Below, one piece after another: positions 5,963 through 40,769 of a stretch of 64,000 bases of DNA; position 1 is the stretch's first letter; each line of letters begins with the position of its first letter. The stretch is from the NCBI GenBank assembly GCA_027604505.1, contig JADIIX010000040.1, positions 1 to 64,000 on the forward strand, written 5' to 3'. The notes beneath the pieces are model-generated. The model worked only from the letters and a program-made list of their open reading frames with translations. It did no database searches and was not told the DNA's origin. The position numbers and the translations under genes were made by a program. The DNA is from Gonapodya sp. JEL0774 (Eukaryota).

Positions 5963-8900
5963 TCAACGATATACAAGTTTCATTTGTTTGTGTTCCTCCA
6001 CTTTCCGTTTCTTGTGGGCTTTCTTCTTCAAACCCGCCTCGATTTTTCTCTTTGCTGCAATTTGTGGTCTTGCTACGGTATCCAAGTCCTTTTGTGCTTT
6101 GCGTTCTTGTCGAACCCGCAAAGAGGCGGCGTGCACGGTATTGTAGGCCTCAAGATAGGCATCAGTGCCAGAGAACTTCTGATATGTCTCCAGGGTCTCT
6201 TGCGCCAAAAGTTTGAGGTCATCTGGGCGCAGAAAAGGGAAGTGTGCGTGCGTTCAAAGTCATCCCTCAGTTGATTAGAAACTACAACGTACCAGCGTTA
6301 CGTTCTGTTTCATCCACCACCACACGGTATGCCGTAGCAATCATGGTCGGAAGATGGCGTACAAGTACATCCTTCGGCAAGAACGCAGAAATGGCACCGT
6401 AAAACTTGAATATGATGGTCCGCTAAATGTTGAACCATGTATCACTGACACAAACCACGAATACTTCATAAAGAGAACAGTAAGCTTACGGCATTCTGCA
6501 TTTTTGTACGAGTTCGTTCGGTTCTCGCTATATACGCCACTTTTCTGATAAGCCAGGTCAGTGGGTGGCTATGTGTAGTTCCGGTGTGATCGTCGCTTTC
6601 ATCCCCGGACTCGATGTTAACGGTCGTGAGAGATTCAAGATTATGCAACCTCTTCGCGACATAAACAATGTTTTGGAGAAGCAACGATTTGAGATCTTCT
6701 GTCATTTCTGTTGCTTCCAATTGAATGCACATTGCTTTGGCCAAGTCGACCGCACTTGCAGGATTTTGCAGAATCGATGCTTGCTGGGAGGAATCCTCAA
6801 ATGTGCCAGAACTGGGATCAACTGCCCCGAAGTACATGCCCCATAATCTCGACGTGAGGGTCCGAATCCATGAGTGGGGATGAACCGCAAATTCTTTCGC
6901 CATCATCCACATCTGGACTGAGTCTGACGCAGAGATATACCTCGGATGTTGTGATAGTACCTTTGAGAAGGCGTTTAAAACATAATAGTCCAACTCCCAC
7001 GTTCTTGAAATCTCTTCGCCGCTTTCATCTCTCCACCTGGAAGACTGTAACGAGGAACTGAAGGAAGCGAGAAGTTCCGGGACATGCTTCGCTGTCATCA
7101 AAGAACTGCTCTCAATTATGATACCGTACACCTGTGCGGCCGTCCGCCGAAGGCGAAGTTTTGAAGTTCCCGCGAACCACTTCTTGACCAGAGTAAGAAG
7201 CCGGTCGCCACTCGGCTGCCCTTCAAAACATTTCTGAAGTACCTTTTTCGTAAGTTCCCCTGCCGCTCTCCGGCATTGCCGAGACTCGTCGTTCACGATG
7301 ACAACTACGAGCGCCAGGAACACTCCTTCTGCAAACTCCAGCAAAACTGACACCGGGAACTTTTGAAAAACAACTGTCAACATCTCAAGTACAGAATTTC
7401 GTCCAGCTTCGAATTCGTACGACAGGTTCTGGATCAAAAAATCCATTTGCTTTCTCAATCGTCCCGTGCCCTGTGGATAGTCCAAGAGAAATTGCAGCCA
7501 AGTACTCCGAGAGAGATCCCGCGTTTCGGAACTTTGACTCGTAATGAGCAGCTGAGCAATGGAGTCCATTATATCATACATGTCCTCGTTGACAATCTTC
7601 CTCGTCATGATGGCTCTGAGTACACCAAAGGTGGTGGATCTTGACTCCAATTGATCAAGCTCGGGCTTCACAACCTTCAATATCGCCGCCAGCTGTTTTT
7701 CTGTGATTGTTACGTCCGGGCGATCACGAAGAACGACGGTGATAAGCTTTAAGATTGCCTGATTGAGCTCGGCGTCCGCATTTGCTGAGGCTGCAAGCAA
7801 CTCAAACACCTTCCTGAGAATGACAGGCATGGTCGCTGAGATTCCCGCGATGTTTGATCCACAGACTAAGCTTAGTACTTTAAGGGCCTCCGCAACAACT
7901 TCCAAACTTCTGGAGTACAAACACTCGCCGACTGTTCCCACAAGTGGTGCAATCATTCCCCTGGTATTCTCATCTGTCAGGTCGATCCGGTGACGCCGTA
8001 AGCCAGAAAAGAGGAGCGAGAGACCGAATTTGGTGAATCGATGGGCGTTTGTTGCGAAGTGAGAAATCGGTCCAAGGGCATCCTTTGCTCGGAGCTGAAC
8101 AAGAAAATTCTCCTCGGCCAAAGTCTTCTTCTTTGACATTATTTGTGCGACCTTCGAAAGCGGAAGTGACTCTGTGAGCAATCCATGGATGAAAATCAAA
8201 AAATCTGCCGTCGCAACATCTGCATTCAGAGCAAGTCCAGCGGAGATACGTCTCAGAACTTCGTCAACCTTGCTCATGGATTTCGCTTTGTCTGTTTCAA
8301 CCATTATCCGCTTTAAAGGAACAAGTAGGTCTCCTACCCTCGTGAAGCGAATGACTTTGGTGAGGGTTTCAAGTGTTTCGAAGCTCTTGTGAGATTTCAT
8401 CTCCTTTGTTTTGCCCGCCAACTCTTTAATCTCCTTTTCATCTGCAACATCTCCGAAGATGTCGTCGATCAATATCGGCACAAGTTCTTCCAGACAATAA
8501 TCGATATCTCCAATTTTAAGATTCGGAGCCATGTTTGCGATGAGCGAGTTAACAGTGTAAGTCATCACATGCTTCTGATATCCCCTATTTAGTGAAGTTT
8601 TGAGTTGCACAATGACGAAAGAGAGGTAATCTGGGCCAAGGAGTTCTAGAATCTTTGAGAGAGTCTCTCTTGTGCTATCCCTGGCACTTTGCATCCTACT
8701 CCGAAGGAGGACACATAAATTGAGGAGAAGCTGTGGTAGTTGTGATCGCAGTGTTTCTGGTGGCAATCGTTTCAAGAGCTTCGCGATGGCTAAAGCGATT
8801 GGTACACGAATACTGACTGTCTCGTCATCCTCTTGCTTGAGATATTTATACAACCCCGGAAGAAGTTTCTCCAAAACGACTGAAAAAATATGTTCAGATT

Positions 8901-28500: not shown

Positions 28501-29918
28501 TGGAAACGCTTGTCACGATGACTAACAACAACCCGGCGTCCCTCATCTTCCTCGTCGTCAGACTAACAGCCACCAACGCAAAGACGATATTGAACGTATG
28601 TCCCAGAACCAACCACAAGTCCGCGGGCACTCACGGAATCTGCACCACCCGCACCTTTCTTCCACCTCGATGACGCTCCCTTCTTCATCTCCCCATCTGA
28701 GTCTTGCCCACCAGCGCGCTTATCCCCGTCCTCGTCTTCATCCGAATCTTCCTCGGTCTCACTCTCTGACTCGCTCTCCGATTCCGACTCCGAATCTCGG
28801 CCTGCAGGCTTTTTGAGCCACTTGGACGCTGCTGCCGGCTTCTTGGGGGCGGGTTTCGGATCGTCCGACTCGTCACTGCTTTCGTCGGAGGCCTCGTCGT
28901 CGTCACTGCTTTCCGAGTCAGCACCAGCAGATTTTTTGAGCCATTTAGAGGGTACTGCGACCGGTTTATTGGGTGGAGTAGGCTTCTTGACCGCCGCTCC
29001 CTTGTTTACCACCGGATTCTCCTCTTCGCTTTCGCTTTCTGACTCTGTCTCCTCGCTACTGCTAGACTTCCCTCCAGCAGACTTCTTGAGCCACTTGCTT
29101 CGGCCGGCGCTGGGTTTCGCTGTTGAAGGTTCTGGCTTCTTCCCTCCAGAGAGGGCTGGTACGGATTGTTTGCCTGCAGGCTTGGCGGCAGTTGTGCCCT
29201 TCTTGCCAGGGAGAGGTTTGGCGTCCTCCTCAGACGACTCATCGTCATCCGATGATTCGACCTTCTTGGTCCACTTCGAATGAACTGCGGCTGGTTTCAC
29301 TGGAGCGGCGGCTGGTTTAGCGGGTATGGGCTTTGCCGCCGCGGGTTTGCTAGGTTGCGCGGCAGGCTTTTTCGTGAGTTTTACGTCCTCCTCTGATGAT
29401 TCCTCTTCTGAAGACTCCGATTCCACCTTCTTGGCAAACTTTGCAGGAACAACAGCAGGCTTTGCCGGAGTAGCAGCAGGTTTTGCACTAGTAGTCAGTT
29501 TTGAGGGTGCTGCTGATTTTCCAGCAGCTGCAACAGCAGGCTTCTTGGCTTGTGGTGTGGCTCTAGCGGACGGGGTGTCCGAATCCTCATCCTCATCCGA
29601 TTCATCGTCCTCTTCGGACTCCTCCTGCTGCTTCTTTGAAGGCATTGGAGCAGGCTTTTTCGCAGCTGCGGCGGGAGTCGCCACAGGTTTCTTAGCCTGG
29701 AGGAAAGTCTTCTTGGGCGCTTCCTCTTCACTACTCTCCTCACTTTCCTCGCTTTCGTCTGAGTCCGAATCCACCTCCACTGGTTTCTTTTGAGGAGGGG
29801 CTGGTTGTTTCTTGGCGGCGGGGGTGGATGCTTTCACTGCAGGCTTCTTGGGTTGTTCATCCTCAGACGACTCGGACGACTCCTCAGCCTTCGCGACGCG
29901 TGCGGGGCGAGGTGGCAT
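25572..29918 (-). CDS. NIP1: Translation initiation factor eIF3 subunit c (Nip1) with a long low-complexity N-terminal extension
   Basis: [83 protein letters not shown] and GPPE..RDH PCI domain. Intron 28563-28634 joins the repetitive first exon in frame. Confidence 0.92.
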
Positions 29919-30307
29919 TATAAGCTTGGAAACCCGATGTACGGAATGAATATGATGTGTAATTCGACTGTCCAGATGTTGTCAACGAACTGAATGGAGA
30001 CCAGAGAGCGGGCGAGTAGCAGTTCCGATTCAGCACGCGGTTCGAGCCTCGGTTTGGCCCGCAGTCAACAATAAAACAGAGGCTTCTCACTTAGATTGTC
30101 GTCAAACTTGATGGATCCCGATGCCCTTGTTCGACACTCTGGCTGATCTGTGTGTATTTGGGTCTGTGCAGAATAAAATGAAGTGCGCAAACACCACCTA
30201 AGAGCGACTAAAGTCATACCAACAATCTTGTGCGAACCCTTTTTCGGAAATTTTGCTCAGTCCTTTCTCGCTGAATTATAATACTGAGTCGCTCCCAAGC
30301 CTCTCAC

Positions 30308-31411
30308 ATGAGACAAAACGAAATGCAAAAGACCGCTAAAGCGTGCGCTCACCTACAAACTGTCGTTGGAGTTACTCCGTATGAGCTTGCTGCAGCATAC
30401 GACGTACATCTCAGCACCATCTATAGTTGGTTGGAGAGGGCGCGTGGTAGCCCTGCACCCACATACGGTCCTCCGAATCGAAGTGGTCGAAGGACCAAAT
30501 GCAATCCAGAAATAGAGGCCTTTGTATGTGACTGGATGGTTGCCGATGCAGCCCGAACGCAACGGGAAGCCGCCACGATGGTGCTCGAGCGGTTTCATGT
30601 CTCGGTATCACAGCAAACCATTTCAAACATCCTGAAAAGAAACTCGGTGACAAGGAAAAAACTATCCACCGTGTACTCAGAGCAAGCTGGCCGCGAAGAG
30701 GAAGTGCTTACCTACAAACGTGAAATGTCAGCTGTCCACCACGAAATGTGGATGGCTATGGATGAAAGTGGTTTCAAACTTAATGAGGTCCCCCACTACG
30801 GCTACTCGAAGCGGGGAACACGTGCCACTGAAAGAAAACCAAACTGTTTCTCCGCAAATTACAGTCTTCTCTTGACATTGCGGTGGACACGTAATTATTA
30901 CGCCCCAGTGGCAATGGAAACCACAGATAAGGCGTTAGCGCGCGCCGCTAGACACTTATTGGATCCACTACCGGAATCACCAGTTGTTTGTTGGTCACTT
31001 GTTAAAGGTTCGGTAAATGCGGTTGTGTTTCAAGAATACTTGGCAAAGGGTATTGGACGCAGTGTAGGCGTTCAGCCTGCACTTGCTCTTGACAACGCAA
31101 GGATACATCGAGCAACAAAAGCCTGCCTCGAAAATGGAATACCAACAATCTCGGAAACGGCTGCAGCAATAAACCTAAATCTGAAATATTTGCCTCCTTA
31201 TTGTCCATTTCTTAATCCAGTGGAACACGCATTTAAGCTTATTAAAAACGATTTTGTTCGCCGGGCTCGTCCGCGTACAGAAGCACAACTGCGGGCAGCA
31301 ATTTCAAAAGGCATACAATCGCTGACATCTACCAAGGTCAATAGACTTTTTGAGCACTGTTTCTTACGTTCAAAAATGCCAGTGATTACGTCGGGCAACA
31401 ACAATTCATAA
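30308..31411 (+). CDS. IS630-Tc1-mariner superfamily transposase (HTH + DDE), intact ORF
   Basis: Two HTH-like segments (ELAAAYDVHLSTIYSW; TQREAA..VSVSQQTISNILKR..TRKK) and catalytic motifs MDESGF, LDNARIH and YLPPYCPFLNPVEHAF. Confidence 0.92.
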   Translation: MRQNEMQKTAKACAHLQTVVGVTPYELAAAYDVHLSTIYSWLERARGSPAPTYGPPNRSGRRTKCNPEIEAFVCDWMVADAARTQREAATMVLERFHVSVSQQTISNILKRNSVTRKKLSTVYSEQAGREEEVLTYKREMSAVHHEMWMAMDESGFKLNEVPHYGYSKRGTRATERKPNCFSANYSLLLTLRWTRNYYAPVAMETTDKALARAARHLLDPLPESPVVCWSLVKGSVNAVVFQEYLAKGIGRSVGVQPALALDNARIHRATKACLENGIPTISETAAAINLNLKYLPPYCPFLNPVEHAFKLIKNDFVRRARPRTEAQLRAAISKGIQSLTSTKVNRLFEHCFLRSKMPVITSGNNNS

Positions 31412-31453
31412 TTGAGCAGACTGTGATCTTGAAAACTGATTGCTTTTGCGAAG

Positions 31454-32804
31454 GTGTCTGCGCCACACTTTTGGACATCAAAGAGCCCTCTTCTGGCCAT
31501 TGTTTTCGAACATCCCTCTTCTTTTCCAATGGGGTGGCCCCGTCTGGTGGTAGACCTCCACCAGAAGGGCGCCCTGGCCCTCTTTTCGACGCTGGACCAA
31601 ACTGCATTCGCGGACCTTGTCCATGACGCAGCTCTACAGCGCGGACTTCCTCCCCAGACTCAAGCCGTTGGCTACGTCGATGCCTCCCCCCTTATCTACC
31701 GCCTTGCAGCGACTGCAATGGTAGCAGGAACACTGGAGGTTTGGACGGGACTGTTTCACCTTGGCGAGAACTTCACTGTGGAGGTCAAGGACCACATAGT
31801 TGATCGTTGGGCAAACCATTACGCTAGCAAACTCTATGACACCATCAACGCGACAGTGCCAATCGATTCTCCACTAATTAACGAGCTCCATGTCTTTGTG
31901 GAACGTCGTGAAGCACGGGGGTTCCACAACAGCAGTGACGTCTCTCAGTCTGGTCGCACTGCATTCCAAAGAGCGAGATCCATAACCAAGAGTGCCTCGA
32001 CTTGGTTGTCTCACATGTTCAAGACACTTTACCATGTACCTCTGTACCGACCCAATGCTGACACTTTGTGTTGTAAGTCATAACCCTTTCCCAAAATCGG
32101 AGTACAATCAAACTCACATGGAGCCAACAACAGGTGACCCACCACCTACTTTGAAGACGACGGTGTCTCATCTTGCCAGGGCCGGCTCTCGGCTTCCGGA
32201 CTGGTTTCTCATACCCGTTGTTCAACGTCTCGCAGTCTTGTCGGGAAAGATTCGGATTCGTATGGTCGAAGGAATTGCCGACGAAGCCGCTGCGGCACAA
32301 GGTACTGCCTGACCTTTTCTTGTTGACCTGACTCGGTGATGTGAACCGCTGTGTATTCCAACAGCTGTGCTGGACATACGACCGGTGGTCAAGTTTGCAC
32401 TATCCTCTGACACAGACTGGCTGGCAGCCGGAGTCGACGGGCGGTTTGATCTGTTTTTTTCACCAACAAGTCCGAGGAATGAGCGTTATCCTGGTCTGGA
32501 TGGCAGACCGTACTGGGTTCGACCTGCCGCGGTGGTGCAGACGCTATTTCCAAACGGGAATCCAAGGGCGTTTGTATTCTGTGGACACTATGCCGGAACA
32601 GATACAAGCCCAAGAAACAAGACGGTGAGATGAGAGCGTCAGTCAGCGGTTCGAAAAAGGACCACTAATCGTCGTTTCTGTGTTGCGTCTTTGTAGAGTC
32701 GAAGAGTCCTTTTCTCGTTTTTCGAACATCTTGCACGGTCCGAAGTACCAACAACTCTTGACGAGTTTCACTCTTATTTGGTTGCCCGTCCCACGTTTGG
32801 CTAG
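31454..32804 (+). CDS. Spliced unknown coding segment inside the element (separate ORF, or linker of a transposase-Fanzor fusion)
   Basis: Phase-compatible introns 32073-32133, 32302-32364 and 32625-32696 link open frames. The frame ends at TAG 32802-32804, which is in frame with the Fanzor ATG at 32847. No recognisable domain. Confidence 0.55.
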
Positions 32805-32846
32805 CAGGAGACACGATCTTACCTGCATGCAGACACCGTTGACATA

Positions 32847-35800
32847 ATGGCCGCAAACCGAGAAGAACTCCGACACGTCATTACCCGAATGATCCCCACA
32901 TTAGACGATTTACAAAGTGGTCGCGTCTCCTACCCCTCTTACGCTGACACCATGCAAATGGAAGAGTGGAGATCTGCGAGTAGGTGCAACGAACCATCGC
33001 GGCTGGAGCAGCATATTGCTCAGACCAGACAGGGGTCAACCGGTAGTGACGACATTGTGTCCTGCCGTCCTGGGGTTCTGGCGCTTTGTATCCAATTTTG
33101 CGAGGTACTGTCGTGGCAGATTAAGAATTCAACTGTCACGTTATTCTCACCCATTTGCAACCGCCACCAGAAATCAGGAAGGGACGTGCCCTCATACCTG
33201 AAAGCGCATCTTGGTTCTCGTAACACCCGGTCACCAAGCAATCATCGTACACTCACAAAGAGACAGGTCCTTGACGCTGCTCGTTGTGTGAGAGAGAAGG
33301 TTGCGAGAAGGCGTGCATTGAAACGACTCTCATATCGCACAGAACTTGGAATGCAATGGACATTCGTGAACTTTTGCCGACAGGCGCCTCAGAATGTTTC
33401 CGCAGCAGTCAGCGGGCACATTGCCTCTGCTGATCTCTTGTCTCTTCGCAACGACACACACTTCGGCATGTTTCTGCAGTATTCCATGGACGGAATGACA
33501 CTTGACCATTTTGCAAGCATGTGCAAGGCCGTCCAGATTGCCATTGTGCAGATGTATGCGTATTGGAAGCAACCTCGGGTCACCGCCAACAGTCGAACTT
33601 GGACAGATTGCGTAGCAGACTTGAATAAGTTCTCAGCGATTGCTCCTGCGAGTGATGGCGAAGATGTCGAGATAACATACCCTGAGGCCCAAAATACATT
33701 TGCTGGTGAGTTACTTCAATCGGTTTGACAACCCTCACATCCAATATTCGGTGCTGATACTTGTTTTACATGGTCTACCTGTCTGTTGGCTTTTTCCCAC
33801 CAAGACGTTTCCACGTCGAACACAAAGCGGAAGACTACTCACATCGCCGAAGGAGACCACGAACAAGTGGACAAGAAGCGGAAGCGAAACGCAACTAAGC
33901 TTACAGAAGACGAGATCAAACGCCTGTACATGCTAGTGACAATCCCGATGACTACCTTGGACGAGCTTCTCTGTCTCCCAGACACTCTCCGGCGACTCAT
34001 TGTGGATGGGCTTATCCCGGTCCATCGTAGGCTTGTCAACGCCGCCCGTATTGGATGCACATCCACCCTACTCGTGGATTTGAGCATTGGCAGAGGCTCT
34101 TTTATCACTGGCAGTGATCTTCAAAAGTTATTTGTTGACATGTACAGTGAAACAGCAAAGGAGGAGATGTTGACGAGCATGGCAATTGACAAGCCAATAC
34201 AGCAGTTTGGCAAACATTTCGCAGGCGCTGTCATCGGCGCATGCAAACGTGCACTTCCACGATTGAGCAAGGTATGTATTCTGTTATTTTGGTGAAACCT
34301 TTTCTCCGCGCCTGTTTATGTTGTTTCTGGATTTCAGCTGTGGTTACGTGCTGAAATCCAGAAACAAGTGGCTGGGACATCTGTTAGGACCGATATCGTC
34401 AGAGGGCTCATAGTGCTTCTCAACCGTGTCATTGCCGGTTTTCCTGGAGACTGGAGGAGTGCCCTACAAGGGCAACTGAATGACGCTGATGATCGATTGG
34501 CAGAAGGCAACGACGACAACGATTTCAACAATGGTGACACTGTGGATATTGCCGTGGACGGAGAAGACGAGTCTGACATTGAGGAGGCACGCAATGCCCT
34601 GCTGCAAGAATTGGCAGCAAAGAAAGATTTTACGACTGATGCGACACGCCTGAAGAGTCGGTTTGAACGGCTTTTTTCTGGCAAGCGGCTAACCCCAGCC
34701 GAATTATCATTCCGAAACACTTTCAACATTGATCTTGTGAGAGGGAACTCGACAAAGGCTTGGATCGCCGAAATGCGCCGGCGATTCTTACACCCAACCC
34801 TCCTTCGAAGTGGACTGTATCCAACAGACGGTGGACCGACTGATATGGGCAAGGTTGTCACGGATTCCACAATCGGCTGGGTGTTGCAGTTTGTCTATGA
34901 CATCGATCAGTTTGTTGTGCAGAGCAACCCCGATTCACCACGTGGCATTCCCCAACTCTTATGCCCTCAACCGTCCTTTTCAGGTGGCTTTGTTTCCGAG
35001 ACAGCGACCACTTTCTCAGCCATTGTTTGTGAAGCCATCCAAATTGCTGTAAAAGCTCGAGACAATGGCGACACTGTGGTGAACGGCGTTGACGTTCCGT
35101 CAGACACGTACAAACTGATTGTCGCACACGTCGAATCACGCATAGCGTCTGCTATTGCTTTGGGTTATGAGGCGATGGGGCTTGACGAACCTGCCGTCAA
35201 TCAGACTCTCTCGGAAAGGGTTGAGACTTACAATGCATTCCGCTCCAAGTGGCTCTCAGCAGACCCAACCGATCCGACTGGGTTATACAGATCCCTGCAG
35301 ATGGGTTCTGACAGTAATCCTATGTTGCACCCCATGCTGATCCCGAACATCATCCAGAAAAGGGGTAATATATCCTGTTCTATCAGTGTTTACACACCAG
35401 CGCAGCCATTCCTCTTTTTTACTTTTATGCCCGGTGCGGCAACATATTTCGGAGAGCGCTGGCGTCGCGGACAGCATTTGTGGTTCAAGCACAGCTTTGC
35501 AACGGATGGACTCAATGTTCGGCTACAGGCCTTTGATCTCAACAGTTACACGTCACGGAAGAACGCTGGATATCCGGTTGGAGGGAACAATCGGTCACGC
35601 AAATCCCGCTTTACGGTGAATGATGTCTCTGGTTTTGACTTCCTTTCACTTTGATCTCACTTAGTCCTCAAAAGTCTCGTCCGGCCGATGCGTTTCTCTA
35701 TGGCATCGGTCTGCGTCCACCCAATGCCAGCTGCCGTCCAGGAACCTTGCGCAAAAGCCCACAGAGCCCAAACATCGTACCCGATCGTCCTTTTGGCACG

Positions 35801-36981
35801 ATTCCGCCACAAGACGACAAGATATTCATGGGCCCCGGTACCTCTGGCACGAGACTTTTCGGGAAGGGGCACCAGTACGTGAAGTCCAAAGGCATCTGCT
35901 ACCTATCGAAGGTGCCGGAATGGTGTCACGTTGGCAATCAAGAGTATCTCGAAGCCGCAGTCAGGGGCCGTCATGTTTATGCATTAGATCTTGGTGAGCT
36001 CGGTTAACATATTTGAGTCTGTTTGTGAGAACGATGACGATCCATTATTTCGCAGGACGAAAAAGCATTGCATATGGACAATTTGCAACATTGGAAATCA
36101 CAGCAAATGGGATTGTTCCCAAGTCCATTCCGGTCGACATTTCGTCTTCATTCAAGGACAAAATCAGTGGTCAAACGGCGGGGATGAATTCTGCCAACAC
36201 AGACATCCAGAACCAGATCAAGGACGCTGTTGTTGAGCTTTCACGCGCAAGTGCCAGAACTCTAGACGACACACGGTACAGTGATTTTACTGCGTCTGCC
36301 CAAGTTCATGGCTCGGTTGTACTCGAGCACAACTGCAGCCCCACACAACTCGGGTTTCGGGACAACCAGCATCGTCAGAACCAGAGATTTTGGTTGGGCG
36401 AGGTCAACCGTGTCCTCGCCTTGGACGATGCCTCACACATACAGGACCGGGTGGATCAAGTGCGAAAGGATTTTGACGGGCCTTGGACTGATGCAGTAGA
36501 GGCAATGATACGGACCAAAGTGACAATGGATCTCATTGCACACCCAGAGGTCAACGCTCCTATTCTGATCATAGGAGATGCACCATTTGCTCCACAGCAA
36601 CGGGGGCACCGAGGTGGCACAATTGGGTGCGCCAAGAAGTTCATTCAAATGATGACACGATTCTTTTTCGTTGTCGTCGTAGACGAGTATATGACGTCAA
36701 AGGTAAGTTTTCTCTTCTGAGCATTACTTCCAATCTGCAAAAGTCTGAAACTTTGTGCATGTCAGACATGTCCGTGTTGTCTTAACAGGCTCACACCAAA
36801 CCCACTCTACCCCAACGACATTCGCCATTGGAAATGTAGAATGTGCCAACACACCAACGGCGTCAGTCCACTTGTTGTCAACAAGGATTCAAGCGCTTCT
36901 CTTTGCTTCATCCGCATCTTTGTGTCAGTAATGTTGACTGGGTCAATACCGTCGGCATTTAAGCGCCCTGACACATCATGA
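32847..36981 (+). CDS. Fanzor1 (eukaryotic TnpB-like RNA-guided RuvC endonuclease), about 1260 aa from ATG 32847, 6 exons
   Basis: Introns 33706-33804, 34272-34337, 35616-35674 (least certain), 35994-36055 and 36703-36765. Spliced motifs: FATDG; RuvC-I VYALDLGRKS (D at 35987); IIGDAPF..RG; VVVDEYMTSK (E at 36685); zinc finger CPCC...CRMC; RuvC-III NKDSSAS (D at 36886); terminal G-SIPSAFKR. Confidence 0.85.
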
Positions 36982-37150
36982 AATCACCCGTACAACATAT
37001 ACGGTTTCTACGGTAAGTTTTTTTTGAGCACTGGACTGTGAGTGTCTGACTTAACATATTTTTCTGGTCTGCTGGGGACTTTTTTGCTTGGTCAATTTTG
37101 CTGGGTTGTTTTTGCTCGGTCGATGACAAAACACCCCTTTTTGGGATTCT
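36982..37150 (+). ncRNA. Candidate Fanzor omega-RNA (fRNA) scaffold region
   Basis: Lies directly 3' of the Fanzor stop. Hairpins 36988-37004 (CCGTA/TACGG) and 37103-37137 (GGGTTGTTTTTG/CAAAACACCCC). Position is as known for Fanzor omega-RNAs; no expression data. Confidence 0.4.
37082..37121 (+). repeat. Three tandem 12-mers at an exact 14-nt period (TTTTGCTTGGTC, TTTTGCTGGGTT, TTTTGCTCGGTC)
   Basis: Copies start at 37082, 37096 and 37110. A fourth copy, TTTTGCTCAGTC, is at 30251-30262. Confidence 0.7.
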
Positions 37151-37251
37151 CATGTAAATACTTGTTTAGCTGTAGATAAGGCAGTGCACACAAATAAAGG
37201 GGCGGGGCGCCTCAAGAGAAAAGTGGCCAAGCGTAACTTATCGCCTAACGA

Positions 37252-38053
37252 ATGCGTGAGCTCAAGTTCCACGAGAAGAAGCTTCTCAAGAAAGTCGATT
37301 TCCTGCAATGGAAGGGTGACTCCACCCTGAGGGAAGCGCAGGTGATGCGTCGGTATCATCTACAAAGGAGAGACGACTATTTGATGTAAGTCGAGCTTCT
37401 TCTTTGCGGAGCTTCCTGCCCCCAGCATAGCGACGACCAAGCTAACTGTTTTTTGTCACCGTTATTGGGTACCCAGGTACAACAAGCTTTGCGGACAGAT
37501 TCGCAAGCTCGCCAACCGGATATCACTTCTTGACCCACGCGATCCATTCCGTGCGGAACGAGCGGACGCGCTATTGGAGAAAATATACCAGATGGGCCTC
37601 ATCACATCCGCAAAGAAGGGGTTGAGTGAAGCTGATAAGGTCACAGTGTCCGCGTTCTGCAGGTATGTGTTGTAGGTTATGAGTCGCTGCGACTATTGCA
37701 CTCAGAAACCAGTCGATGGTCGTAGGCGGCGTCTGCCTCTCGTTCTATGTAGATTGAAAATGGCGGAAACGGTGAAACAGGCGGTCACTCTCGTGGAGCA
37801 GGGTCACGTTCGGGTGGGGCCCGAAACTGTAACGGATCCAGCGTACCTCGTAACGCGGACCATGGAGGACTTTGTGACGTGGGTGGACACTAGCAAAATT
37901 AAGAGGAAGGTCGCGACGTATAACGATCAGGTAAACTGCTGTTAGTGTCTGGTTGTGCTTGTCTCTCACTGCTCACATTTGTCCTCCTACCGCCACGTCA
38001 CCCCCACCAATCCTACCTAAACCTTACAGCTCGATGATTACGAGCTTATGTAG
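37252..38053 (+). CDS. IMP3: U3 snoRNP protein Imp3
   Basis: [75 protein letters not shown]. Confidence 0.95.
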
Positions 38054-39952: not shown

Positions 39953-40550
39953 CTAATTTTCCAACAAGTATTCTACCACTGATTTCCACTTTGTTCTGTC
40001 AGGTTGGTCCTCGGGTCCGTTGAGATAGTGCTCCACTCTCGCGGCTGCTGTGACGAGACCCGACATTTCATCTGTGATATCCCAAATAATTCAGTCATGA
40101 TATCCAAGGCGACGCGGCGAACGATAATCGATGTGATATTTGAAACTCACCCTTCGTCACAGCGAAGCGATCCCTGCCTTCCCACTCGGACATAATCGTG
40201 TTGGCATCGTAAAGTGTTTCCGGCGGACCAATCCATTCTATTGTAGCGTATTCTCCGGCAGGCAAGTCATCAATTTTGAGCGTAGTGTCTTGCAAGATCT
40301 TCGCTGCATCGGGCGGAATGGGCCACCCAACATGCACAGTGAGTAATGGCATGTCGACAAGAGTGTATCGCACGAGAGGAGGGCCAGCGTTCAGGACACC
40401 GTGTTTGTCCAAGACTGTGCGAACCTTTGGGAGACCATCCTCAATGCTGCCGCCCAGATCGTTCATCGATGTATCGTATAGACGGTAGGCATACGTCCGC
40501 GACGTAGCATAGGATTTGGTCGCGACTGGCGGAACATTCACAGCCGGCAT
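39953..40550 (-). CDS. GyrI-like small-molecule-binding domain protein
   Basis: AGPPLVRY, VHVGWPI, DLPAGEYATIEWIGPPETLYDA; the spliced last exon reads RVEHYLNGPEDQPDRTKWKSVV. Confidence 0.75.
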
Positions 40551-40769
40551 TTTGTGTTATGCTGTGTTGCGGCCGTTGCCTTGGGACAGCCGTTTTCGCA
40601 TTCATAAATGGCGCTGGTGTAGAATGTGTGGAAGAATCTGTGTTTTTGCGTGGCCAAAGTCGAAACAAAACAAGAATGTTCCGCCTCTCTTTGGACCGTG
40701 CATTCGGAATCCAAACGCATTGTCGAAACTCAAGCTAACACGTGAATACTGCATGATTATTATTGCAGC

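What the first reader, a model, noticed from the sequence alone, without database searches (positions are those of the whole stretch)
30308..37150. Tc1/mariner transposon carrying an intron-split, apparently catalytically intact Fanzor1 RNA-guided nuclease
Seen in sequence: an intact DDE transposase followed by co-oriented exons that splice into RuvC-I ALDLG (35987), IIGD, VDEYMTSK-CPCC..CRMC (36685) and NKD (36886). Established knowledge: this layout is the Fanzor/TnpB signature, including the rearranged RuvC-II in which the canonical Glu position is Gly and the catalytic Glu sits in the downstream DE..TS motif; Fanzor1 genes are known to ride in mariner-type elements. Inference: this is a eukaryotic RNA-guided endonuclease-transposon system, probably missed by ORF-level annotation because the RuvC-I and zinc-finger motifs straddle introns.
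Basis: partly seen in the sequence, partly recalled or inferred. Interest (0 to 1): 0.92.

Follow-up and report, generated by a model that had tools for sequence, protein, structure and literature searches.

The report
Oversized intron-split fungal Fanzor1 transposon
This fungal DNA holds an intact transposase gene next to a gene, likely split by five or more introns, for a member of the known Fanzor1 family about twice the usual length, predicted to be an RNA-guided DNA cutter that likely helps the mobile element persist.

Summary
Confirmed in its core. The database names the host Gonapodya sp. JEL0774. An uninterrupted IS630-like DD43E transposase ORF (30308-31411) precedes co-oriented exons that join into a Fanzor1. 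The RuvC-I Asp, rearranged Glu, C4 zinc finger and RuvC-III Asp are all present. The seven best structural matches are solved Fanzor1 enzymes. Relatives support all five introns, and the NCBI gene model mis-splices the last one and fuses the gene to the transposase. Unusual features: at least 1,120 aa (1,261 or 1,615 by model, against 600-700), a conserved N-terminal extension of unknown fold, and DLG in place of DPG. Not established: terminal repeats (the 8-nt pair is chance level), target duplication, guide RNA, expression, activity, and whether exons 31529-32804 are a separate passenger gene. A consensus splice donor follows a small hairpin in the expected guide-RNA region, here and in 4 of 12 other independent non-viral-type loci; this is a post hoc lead. 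Fanzor1 in mariner-type elements, Fanzor introns and other Gonapodya Fanzors are already published. Verdict: new variant of a known kind.

The parts
30308..31411 (+). IS630-like DDE transposase (IS630-Tc1-mariner superfamily), 367 aa, HTH plus DD43E; possible in-frame 93-nt intron at 30891-30983 (unresolved)
   Evidence: Pfam DDE_3 E=1.5e-15; NCBIfam IS630 111.9 bits, cut-off 100; D152/D262/E306; intron test inconclusive
30306..30318 (.). Candidate left-end motif overlapping the transposase start codon; weak
   Evidence: 8-nt inverted match to 37148-37155, chance level; 11-nt exact match at 30308 to the terminal repeat of a related giant-virus element, the longest such match in the window, 234 of 20000 shuffles
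31529..32804 (+). Four likely coding exons (31529-32072, 32134-32301, 32365-32624, 32697-32744 or -32804): either a separate 359-aa passenger gene or the far N-terminus of the Fanzor
   Evidence: The first three exons score best in the predicted frame, the 48-nt fourth is uninformative; no family or relative found
32802..32804 (+). In-frame TAG: stop of a passenger gene, or acceptor of a 60-nt intron (32745-32804), or a nonsense change
   Evidence: the NCBI model also uses it as an acceptor
32805..33705 (+). Exon for the Fanzor N-terminal extension; first Met at 32847; conserved in relatives from about 33270
   Evidence: P0004 and P0009 align from model residues 516 and 530 straight into the WED strand, 38% identity
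33706..33804 (+). Intron, 99 nt
   Evidence: GT..AG; P0004 and P0009 read through this point without interruption
33805..34271 (+). Exon: basic NLS-like patch (KKRKR; label from own knowledge), first WED strand, start of REC
34272..34337 (+). Intron, 66 nt
   Evidence: P0004 has a 22-residue in-frame insertion exactly here, P0005 has a similar one, P0009 ends here
34338..35615 (+). Exon: enlarged REC region and WED strands (TDG motif)
35616..35674 (+). Intron, 59 nt
   Evidence: Homology of P0004/P0005 ends and that of P0007 begins at this junction
35675..35993 (+). Exon: clade-conserved WED-RuvC linker and RuvC-I (Asp codon 35987-35989, DLG motif)
   Evidence: P0007 61%, P0010 65% identity
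35994..36055 (+). Intron, 62 nt, splits the Gly of DLG
   Evidence: P0002 has an in-frame insertion here; P0007 and P0010 lose homology here; P0008 and P0011 (G. prolifera models) are contiguous here
36056..36702 (+). Exon: RuvC strands, long helices, RuvC-II Gly (36574) and rearranged catalytic Glu (36685-36687)
   Evidence: Model range ends at residue 900 against SpuFz1 542, which puts Glu899 at E541
36703..36765 (+). Intron, 63 nt (the NCBI model uses acceptor 36788)
   Evidence: Acceptor 36765 scores 195 bits against 141 for 36788; P0002, P0003, P0006 and P0012 lose homology at this donor
36766..36981 (+). Last exon: C4 zinc finger (TNB) and RuvC-III Asp (36886-36888), stop codon
   Evidence: (Cas12f1-like_TNB, E=0.28, weak alone)
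36982..37156 (+). Expected guide-RNA (omegaRNA) region: 5-bp hairpin 36988-37004, consensus splice donor 37013-37018, 14-nt tandem repeat 37082-37121, candidate end motif 37148-37156
   Evidence: whole-region folding no better than shuffles (z=+1.47); no Rfam match in this stretch

Best explanation
The locus holds an intact IS630-like transposase gene and a likely spliced gene for an oversized Fanzor1 with its full Asp-Glu-Asp catalytic set, which likely form one cut-and-paste element whose Fanzor is predicted to act as an RNA-guided DNA endonuclease. Shown: both reading frames, the motifs, the family by profile and fold, and the conservation of exon borders in relatives. Inferred from solved Fanzor1 systems: a transcript running past the element's right end yields an omegaRNA whose last 14-15 nt are the flanking host DNA. 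The protein would then cut an empty site that carries the left-flank motif (TAM) followed by that guide sequence. After the transposase excises the element, such a cut would drive repair from the sister copy and restore it ('restorative homing', a model reviewed in PMC13565253). The element likely landed in the divergent promoter between a lysine/acid-rich gene (minus strand, start near 29920) and an S4-domain IMP3-like gene (plus strand, start near 37252). My odds: Fanzor1 family 0.97; splicing as modelled at the five core introns 0.9; same element as the transposase 0.7; active today 0.5.
For: Fold: the top 7 Foldseek matches in the PDB are all SpuFz1, PpFz1 or GtFz1 (best E=1.7e-3). VIA-align Z=11.9, rmsd 6.8 over 370 aligned residues, model 41-900 on SpuFz1 18-542; the best non-Fanzor row is Z=7.2. 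Profile: the 25-sequence family profile ranks PpFz1 (E=9.9e-5) and SpuFz1 (E=0.068) first and second of 177,635 PDB sequences. Relatives: 20 proteins at E<=0.001, and intronless P0013 passes the Pfam TNB cut-off. Glu lies six residues before the zinc finger, and Asp-to-TS spacing is 214, inside the published 125-275. Linkage: only 117 nt lie between the transposase stop and the next ATG, no recognisable host gene lies in the 7-kb interval, and the window holds no other copy of either protein. 9 of 73 fetched Fanzor loci carry a homologue of this transposase, 8 of them near-identical giant-virus elements. Two G. prolifera paralogues on different contigs are 92% identical, which fits mobility.
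Against: No significant terminal inverted repeat or target duplication: the left/right alignment is no better than shuffles (262 of 300), the 8-nt pair is chance level, a TA-flanked degenerate pair ranked 10 of 168, and the left motif is flanked by CA rather than TA. The expected omegaRNA region does not fold better than shuffles. RuvC-I reads DLG, whereas Fanzors are near exclusively DPG (PMC10711439). The model is mediocre (pLDDT 64, pTM 0.53, RuvC-I region under 60), lacked the last exon, and no Foldseek match reached E<=0.001. Direct phmmer of P0001 against the PDB found no Fanzor. None of the close relatives came with DNA, so linkage to a transposase in this clade is untested. The viral elements have the transposase on the opposite strand.
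Confidence: 0.72

Rival explanations
1. The Fanzor1 gene and the transposase are separate insertions, or the Fanzor is a fixed, host-retained gene, and they are neighbours only because mobile DNA piles up in one promoter.
For: No shared terminal repeats were found. Exon borders are conserved in relatives only 44-65% identical, which fits long vertical descent. Earlier unverified note e1-7522412 describes a large spliced fungal Fanzor without a transposase.
Against: Tight, co-oriented adjacency to the only such transposase in 64 kb; published Mariner-Fanzor1 elements; near-identical paralogues in G. prolifera.
Confidence: 0.2
2. The element is a recently immobilised copy: the frames are still open but the ends and the guide RNA have decayed, so no active RNP forms.
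For: Eroded or absent terminal repeats, an unstructured 3' region, a splice donor with no AG between 37043 and 37168, and an in-frame TAG at 32802.
Against: No stop or frameshift in about 1,100 nt of transposase and about 3,800 nt of Fanzor exons from 32805 on, and all catalytic and zinc-binding residues are kept.
Confidence: 0.3
3. Sub-question on gene count: this is a three-gene element like PGv-1 (transposase, a 359-aa passenger gene ending at TAG 32802-32804, and a 1,261-aa Fanzor from Met 32847), rather than one 1,615-aa Fanzor that splices out 32745-32804.
For: Both models give open frames. PGv-1 and the fetched giant-virus elements carry a middle gene. Homology to relatives starts only at about 33270.
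Against: Only 42 nt would separate the stop from the next Met, with no room for a terminator and promoter. 32745-32804 has GT..AG ends and the 59-72 nt length of most other introns here. P0009 and probably P0004 are N-terminally incomplete, so the start of homology is not the start of the protein.
Confidence: 0.45
4. The NCBI model is right: one 1,720-aa fusion of the transposase DNA-binding half to a Fanzor that ends just after the catalytic Glu.
For: It is the deposited annotation.
Against: It removes the transposase's D262 and E306 from an otherwise intact ORF and drops an exon that scores 54 bits more against intronless relatives.
Confidence: 0.03

Closest known systems
SpuFz1 (Spizellomyces punctatus Fanzor1; PDB 8GKH, 9CEU-9CEZ; PMC10432273, PMC11423790)
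   Same: WED-REC-RuvC-TNB order, rearranged Glu before a C4 zinc finger, Asp-Glu-Asp set; best fold match (Z=11.9, rmsd 6.8, 370 aligned); fungal host
   Different: About 10% identity; single ORF in a 2.1-kb element with clear 30-nt inverted repeats and no transposase, against five or more introns, at least 1,120 aa, an N-terminal extension, DLG, an adjacent transposase and no clear repeats here
PpFz1 (Parasitella parasitica Fanzor1; PDB 9CF0-9CF3)
   Same: Best profile match (E=9.9e-5); an enlarged Fanzor1 with an insertion of about 100 aa (FRI)
   Different: Whether the conserved WED-RuvC linker here is related to FRI was not tested; total length here is far greater
Mariner-Fanzor1 elements PGv-1, PUl-1 (Bao and Jurka 2013, PMC3627910) and the like-built giant-virus loci L005, L006, L009, L013, L014, L019, L020, L022
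   Same: Mariner/IS630-like transposase and Fanzor1 in one element, often with a middle gene; transposase 21-26% identical; an 11-nt piece of their terminal repeat matches 30308-30318
   Different: They are intronless, have clear TA-flanked repeats, DD34E spacing, a Fanzor of about 610 aa, and in the fetched loci the transposase on the opposite strand
Gonapodya prolifera Fz1 entries KXS09892.1, KXS17374.1, KXS18494.1 in published tables
   Same: Same genus already known to carry Fanzor1
   Different: Different proteins; this one and its G. prolifera relatives KXS10411.1 and KXS15984.1 were not found in the supplements searched (the two KXS accessions were searched in 92 and 93 only)
IStrons (PMC10690162; search listing and abstract start seen, plus passages on IStrons in PMC13565253)
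   Same: An intron signal and a guide RNA would share one transposon-end transcript
   Different: IStrons are bacterial self-splicing group I introns; here the signal is a spliceosomal donor and its use is untested

Membership tests
Fanzor (TnpB superfamily) | D-X(125,275)-[TS]-[TS]-X-X-C4 zinc finger-X(5,50)-RD (PMC3627910) | tested here: met
   Asp-to-TS 214, CPCC..CRMC, then NKD 13 residues on; KD for RD, as in relative P0019
Fanzor (TnpB superfamily) | Rearranged RuvC-II: Gly/Pro at the canonical site, catalytic Glu six residues before the zinc finger (PMC10530073, PMC10711439) | tested here: met
   IIGD Gly, Glu 37 residues later (published about 45), six residues to the first Cys; register matches SpuFz1 E541
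Fanzor (TnpB superfamily) | RuvC-I DPG motif (near exclusive in Fanzors, PMC10711439) | tested here: not met
   DLG here and in P0002, P0007, P0008, P0010, P0011, P0015, P0017; DMG P0012, DFG P0016; DPG in P0013, P0019, P0020 of the same 13-row clade. The paper says 'near exclusively', so this marks a variant, not a non-member
Fanzor1 | Bilobed WED/REC/RuvC/TNB fold closer to Fanzor1 than to Fanzor2, TnpB or Cas12 | tested here: met
   Top 7 rows are Fanzor1 in both Foldseek and VIA-align; model pLDDT 64 and without the last exon
Fanzor1 | Carried by a eukaryotic, non-IS607 transposon | tested here: inconclusive
   Adjacent IS630-like DDE transposase, but shared ends not shown
Fanzor1 | Structured omegaRNA between stop codon and right end, extending 14-15 nt into the flank | tested here: inconclusive
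   A 5-bp first hairpin (z=-2.1; published SL1 has 7 bp), rest not better than shuffles; no homologous 3' DNA for covariation
Fanzor1 | TAM-dependent RNA-guided DNA cleavage | not testable with these tools
   Needs a reconstituted RNP
IS630-Tc1-mariner superfamily | HTH plus DDE/D transposase of this family | tested here: met
   NF033545 above cut-off, DDE_3, HTH_32
Tc1 (DD34E) or mariner (DD34D) proper | 34 residues between second Asp and Glu/Asp (definition recalled, from no call) | tested here: not met
   DD43E; nine extra columns against the DD34E viral relatives
IS630-Tc1-mariner superfamily | Terminal inverted repeats flanked by a TA duplication | tested here: inconclusive
   No significant pair; TA follows the right motif but CA precedes the left one; no second copy or empty site available

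The most novel reading that the evidence does not exclude
This clade is a giant Fanzor1 (up to about 1,600 aa) with a new N-terminal domain, and nuclear Fanzor1 elements use the spliceosome to make or control their guide RNA. A donor just after the first hairpin either removes an intron from the omegaRNA precursor or, as here where the next AG lies 13 nt past the candidate end (37169), releases the guide RNA as an intron whose acceptor is supplied by the flank. That would be a spliceosomal counterpart of bacterial IStrons.
Probability: 0.2. Interest if true: 0.8.

Novelty: new variant of a known kind. Interest (0 to 1): 0.52.

Why it matters
It adds an intact-looking Fanzor1 about twice the usual size, from a divergent DLG clade that gene callers break or mis-splice, so catalogues built on annotated proteins likely miss it. 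Sitting beside an intact transposase, it is a candidate for testing what Fanzors do for cut-and-paste elements, which Saito et al. (PMC10432273) state is unknown. If the splice donor in the guide-RNA region is used, it would give a route by which a polymerase II transcript yields both mRNA and omegaRNA, which I did not find described in the searches run.

Tried and rejected
No genome is held for this window, so copy number, other ends and empty sites could not be examined. No sequencing run was listed; this is no evidence on expression. Direct phmmer of P0001 against the PDB gave one unrelated row at E=0.87. Pfam, NCBIfam and PHROGs gave no significant Fanzor hit on the separate exons; the Atlas gave DUF8286 clusters from giant viruses and Mucoromycota at 0.95 with only 166 of 256 shared features, a lead only. 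Scans for DNA of close relatives were empty: metagenomes with A1 (598 pattern hits, 0 confirmed), viral contigs with the transposase (18, 0) and with the N-terminal alignment (67, 0). N-terminal region: no relatives by word search among 7995 scored candidates, fold unusable (pLDDT 41.6, not searched), no PDB match under E=0.1, Atlas request for it did not complete. Terminal repeats: rejected as unproven. The idea that the donor's GG-TA is a transposon right end was dropped: its reverse complement has no match in the window better than 6 mismatches in 21. Apparent AG-GTACGA donors in L049 and L063 were dropped for lack of an acceptor. My note of a '7-aa insertion, DD36E' was wrong; the alignment shows 9 columns and DD34E. 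An in-frame intron in the transposase improves alignment scores by 21-24 points, but a 48-nt alternative gives 17-20, so it is undecided. The Rfam mir-3036 rows at 34318-34369 are far below the gathering score and only reflect a perfect hairpin. Literature: no paper holds both 'Fanzor' and 'Gonapodya'; listings for Fanzor with 'splice site', 'spliceosom' and 'spliced/guide RNA/noncoding' showed no title on spliced Fanzor guide RNAs, but I read passages of only five papers and one review.
Full report
Observation. The region reads as the first stage said. A 367-codon ORF at 30308-31411 is a DDE transposase (Pfam DDE_3 E=1.5e-15; NCBIfam IS630 family 111.9 bits against a cut-off of 100) with D152, D262 and E306, a DD43E spacing. 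Downstream, on the same strand, exons join into one frame ending at 36981 that carries ALDLG, IIGD, VDEYMTSK, CPCC, CRMC and NKD at the stated codons. GC content matches the rest of the window. The flanks are an eIF3c gene and a lysine/acid-rich gene with no Pfam match on the left, and an S4-domain gene (IMP3-like; name from own knowledge) and a formate/nitrite transporter on the right. The two nearest host genes point away from each other, so the 7 kb sit in what looks like a divergent promoter (inference).

Source and annotation. The exon 36055-36702 matched one longer protein exactly, named by NCBI as hypothetical protein HDU93_006713 of Gonapodya sp. JEL0774. That 1,720-aa model joins the first 242 residues of the transposase to the downstream exons and uses acceptor 36788 for the last intron, which drops the zinc finger and RuvC-III. 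This explains why the gene is not labelled as a Fanzor.

Family. A search of 1.84 billion cluster representatives with residues 801-1704 gave 20 proteins at E<=0.001. The close ones (44-65% identity) are single-exon read-throughs or fragments; more distant ones (P0013, P0016, P0019, P0020) run without a break through DE..S.KCPKC and N[RK]D, and P0013 passes the Pfam Cas12f1-like_TNB cut-off. A profile of all 25 aligned sequences ranks PpFz1 (E=9.9e-5) and SpuFz1 (E=0.068) first and second among 177,635 PDB sequences. The AlphaFold2 model of residues 801-1704 is middling (pLDDT 64, pTM 0.53). Its seven best Foldseek matches are all Fanzor1 structures, though none reaches E<=0.001. VIA-align gives Z=11.9 (rmsd 6.8, 370 aligned) over model 41-900 against SpuFz1 18-542, which places Glu899 on the catalytic E541; the best non-Fanzor row is 7.2 (E541 from PMC10432273). 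In a 37-row tree of the RuvC-II region the window protein falls in a 6-row group of split genes (99/96) inside a 13-row group with the intronless relatives (95/95); many other branches are long or open, and no solved Fanzor was in the tree.

Introns. No RNA data were available, so splicing is inferred from relatives. P0004 and P0009 read through the 33706-33804 junction without a break. P0004 has a 22-residue insertion at 34272-34337, P0005 a similar one, and P0009 ends there. P0004 and P0005 end, and P0007 begins, at 35616-35674. P0002 has an insertion at 35994-36055, P0007 and P0010 end there, and the G. prolifera models P0008 and P0011 are contiguous there. P0002, P0003, P0006 and P0012 lose homology at the 36703 donor.

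What is unusual in the protein. Most Fanzor1 proteins are 600-700 aa (PMC11423790; mean 620 in PMC10530073). Here homology to P0004 and P0009 starts at about 33270, some 190 residues before the first WED strand, so the protein is at least 1,120 aa. From the Met at 32847 it is 1,261 aa. If a 60-nt intron at 32745-32804 removes the in-frame TAG at 32802, it is 1,615 aa from 31529; otherwise 31529-32804 is a separate 359-aa gene. The three larger upstream exons score best in the predicted frame under a periodic model trained on the conserved exons, but have no family, relative or usable fold. REC is enlarged, and a WED-RuvC linker of over 100 residues is conserved at 61-65% in P0007 and P0010 though unresolved in the model. 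RuvC-I is DLG in this group; PMC10711439 calls DPG near exclusive in Fanzors. Intronless P0019 is 1,164 aa, so large size is not unique to this gene.

Element ends. Gapped alignments of the two flanks are not significant, nor is a TA-flanked degenerate pair (rank 10 of 168). One hint stands: the longest exact match in the whole window to the 36-nt terminal repeat of giant-virus locus L009 is 11 nt at 30308 (234 of 20000 shuffles); it is post hoc and may only reflect the M-R-Q start codons. Of 73 Fanzor loci fetched with the distant-relative alignment, 9 carry a homologue of this transposase: 8 near-identical giant-virus elements of the PGv-1 layout (21-26% identity, opposite strand, middle gene, clear TA-flanked repeats) and L063. 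None of the 73 belongs to the close, intron-split group, so linkage in this clade is inferred from adjacency (117 nt to the next ATG) and precedent (PMC3627910).

Guide-RNA region. 36982-37156 has a 5-bp hairpin right after the stop (z=-2.1 against base shuffles), a 14-nt repeat in 2.9 copies, and no overall folding signal (z=+1.47). A consensus donor GTAAGT lies 32 nt after the stop. Of the 73 loci, 48 tails end in the giant-virus-type motif and 1 has GTAAGT within 200 nt; 15 lack that motif and 5 have it (L029, L055, L062, L049, L063), each soon after a small hairpin; 10 were left out (contig ends before or just after the stop, or frameshifted: L041, L044, L047, L051, L054, L056, L061, L068, L069, L073). 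Merging related pairs and adding the window gives 5 of 13 (P=7e-5), or 4 of 12 without it (P=9e-4); 102 of 2552 window stretches of 200 nt hold the motif. In L049 and L063 the donor opens segments of 82 and 72 nt that end in ACAG at the same aligned place, with similarity continuing beyond; L029 has an acceptor after 56 nt. In the window there is no AG from 37043 to 37168, so the donor is either dead or pairs with 37169, just outside the candidate end. The motif and the grouping were chosen after seeing the data, the 48 viral-type tails are redundant, and ordinary 3' UTR introns were not controlled for with host genes. It is a lead, not a result.

Mechanism. By analogy with solved Fanzor1 systems, a read-through RNA from the right end would supply scaffold and a 14-15-nt guide (PMC10432273), WED and REC would read a TAM that includes the left target duplication, and the RuvC Asp-Glu-Asp site would cut the empty site left after excision, so that repair restores the element (model in PMC13565253). 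Every step of this is inferred; the in vivo role of Fanzors is stated as unknown in PMC10432273.

Novelty. Fanzor1 in Mariner elements (PMC3627910), intron-rich Fanzors (PMC10530073) and Gonapodya prolifera Fanzors (supplementary tables of PMC10432273 and PMC10711439) are all published. This protein was not found in the supplements searched; one scanned PDF could not be read, long files may be cut, bioRxiv supplements are closed and Repbase was not searchable, so it may be listed somewhere unseen. Papers seen: passages of PMC10530073 (plus section 6 and a supplement search), PMC10711439 and PMC10432273 (passages and supplement search), PMC11423790, PMC3627910 and PMC13565253 (passages); PMC10690162 only as a search listing with the start of its abstract. 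Verdict: a real, intact-looking Fanzor1 beside an intact IS630-like transposase; a new variant by size, N-terminal extension and motif; activity, ends and guide RNA unproven.

Noticed in passing
window 34321-34338 and 34350-34367: A perfect 18-nt inverted repeat spans the 3' splice site of intron 34272-34337 and could sequester it; it also draws a sub-threshold Rfam microRNA row.
   Followed up: no
window 30891-30983: A possible in-frame 93-nt intron in the transposase coincides with a 30-residue insertion against viral homologues.
   Followed up: partly
L049 1010-1091 and L063 8529-8600 (approximate): Homologous GTAAGT..ACAG segments inside a conserved non-coding block 3' of related Fanzor genes; L063 also has a Tc1-like transposase fragment at about 264-869.
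   Followed up: partly
L005, L009, L013, L014, L020, L022, about 7200-8500: PGv-1-like giant-virus elements share transposase, Fanzor and terminal repeats but each carries a different middle gene.
   Followed up: no
P0008 and P0012: These relatives have Asn in place of the Asp just before the rearranged Glu (NE for DE).
   Followed up: no
window 40098-40556, minus strand: Intronless 153-codon ORF with a weak GyrI-like small-molecule-binding match (E=0.0096, below cut-off); a mainly bacterial family by own knowledge.
   Followed up: no
window 28563-29920, minus strand: Long lysine/alanine/proline- and acid-rich ORF with repeated SKWLKK motifs and no Pfam match.
   Followed up: no
window 37082-37121 and 30250-30262: The 14-nt right-end repeat unit resembles a single same-strand motif upstream of the transposase; not significant (37 of 300 shuffles).
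   Followed up: partly
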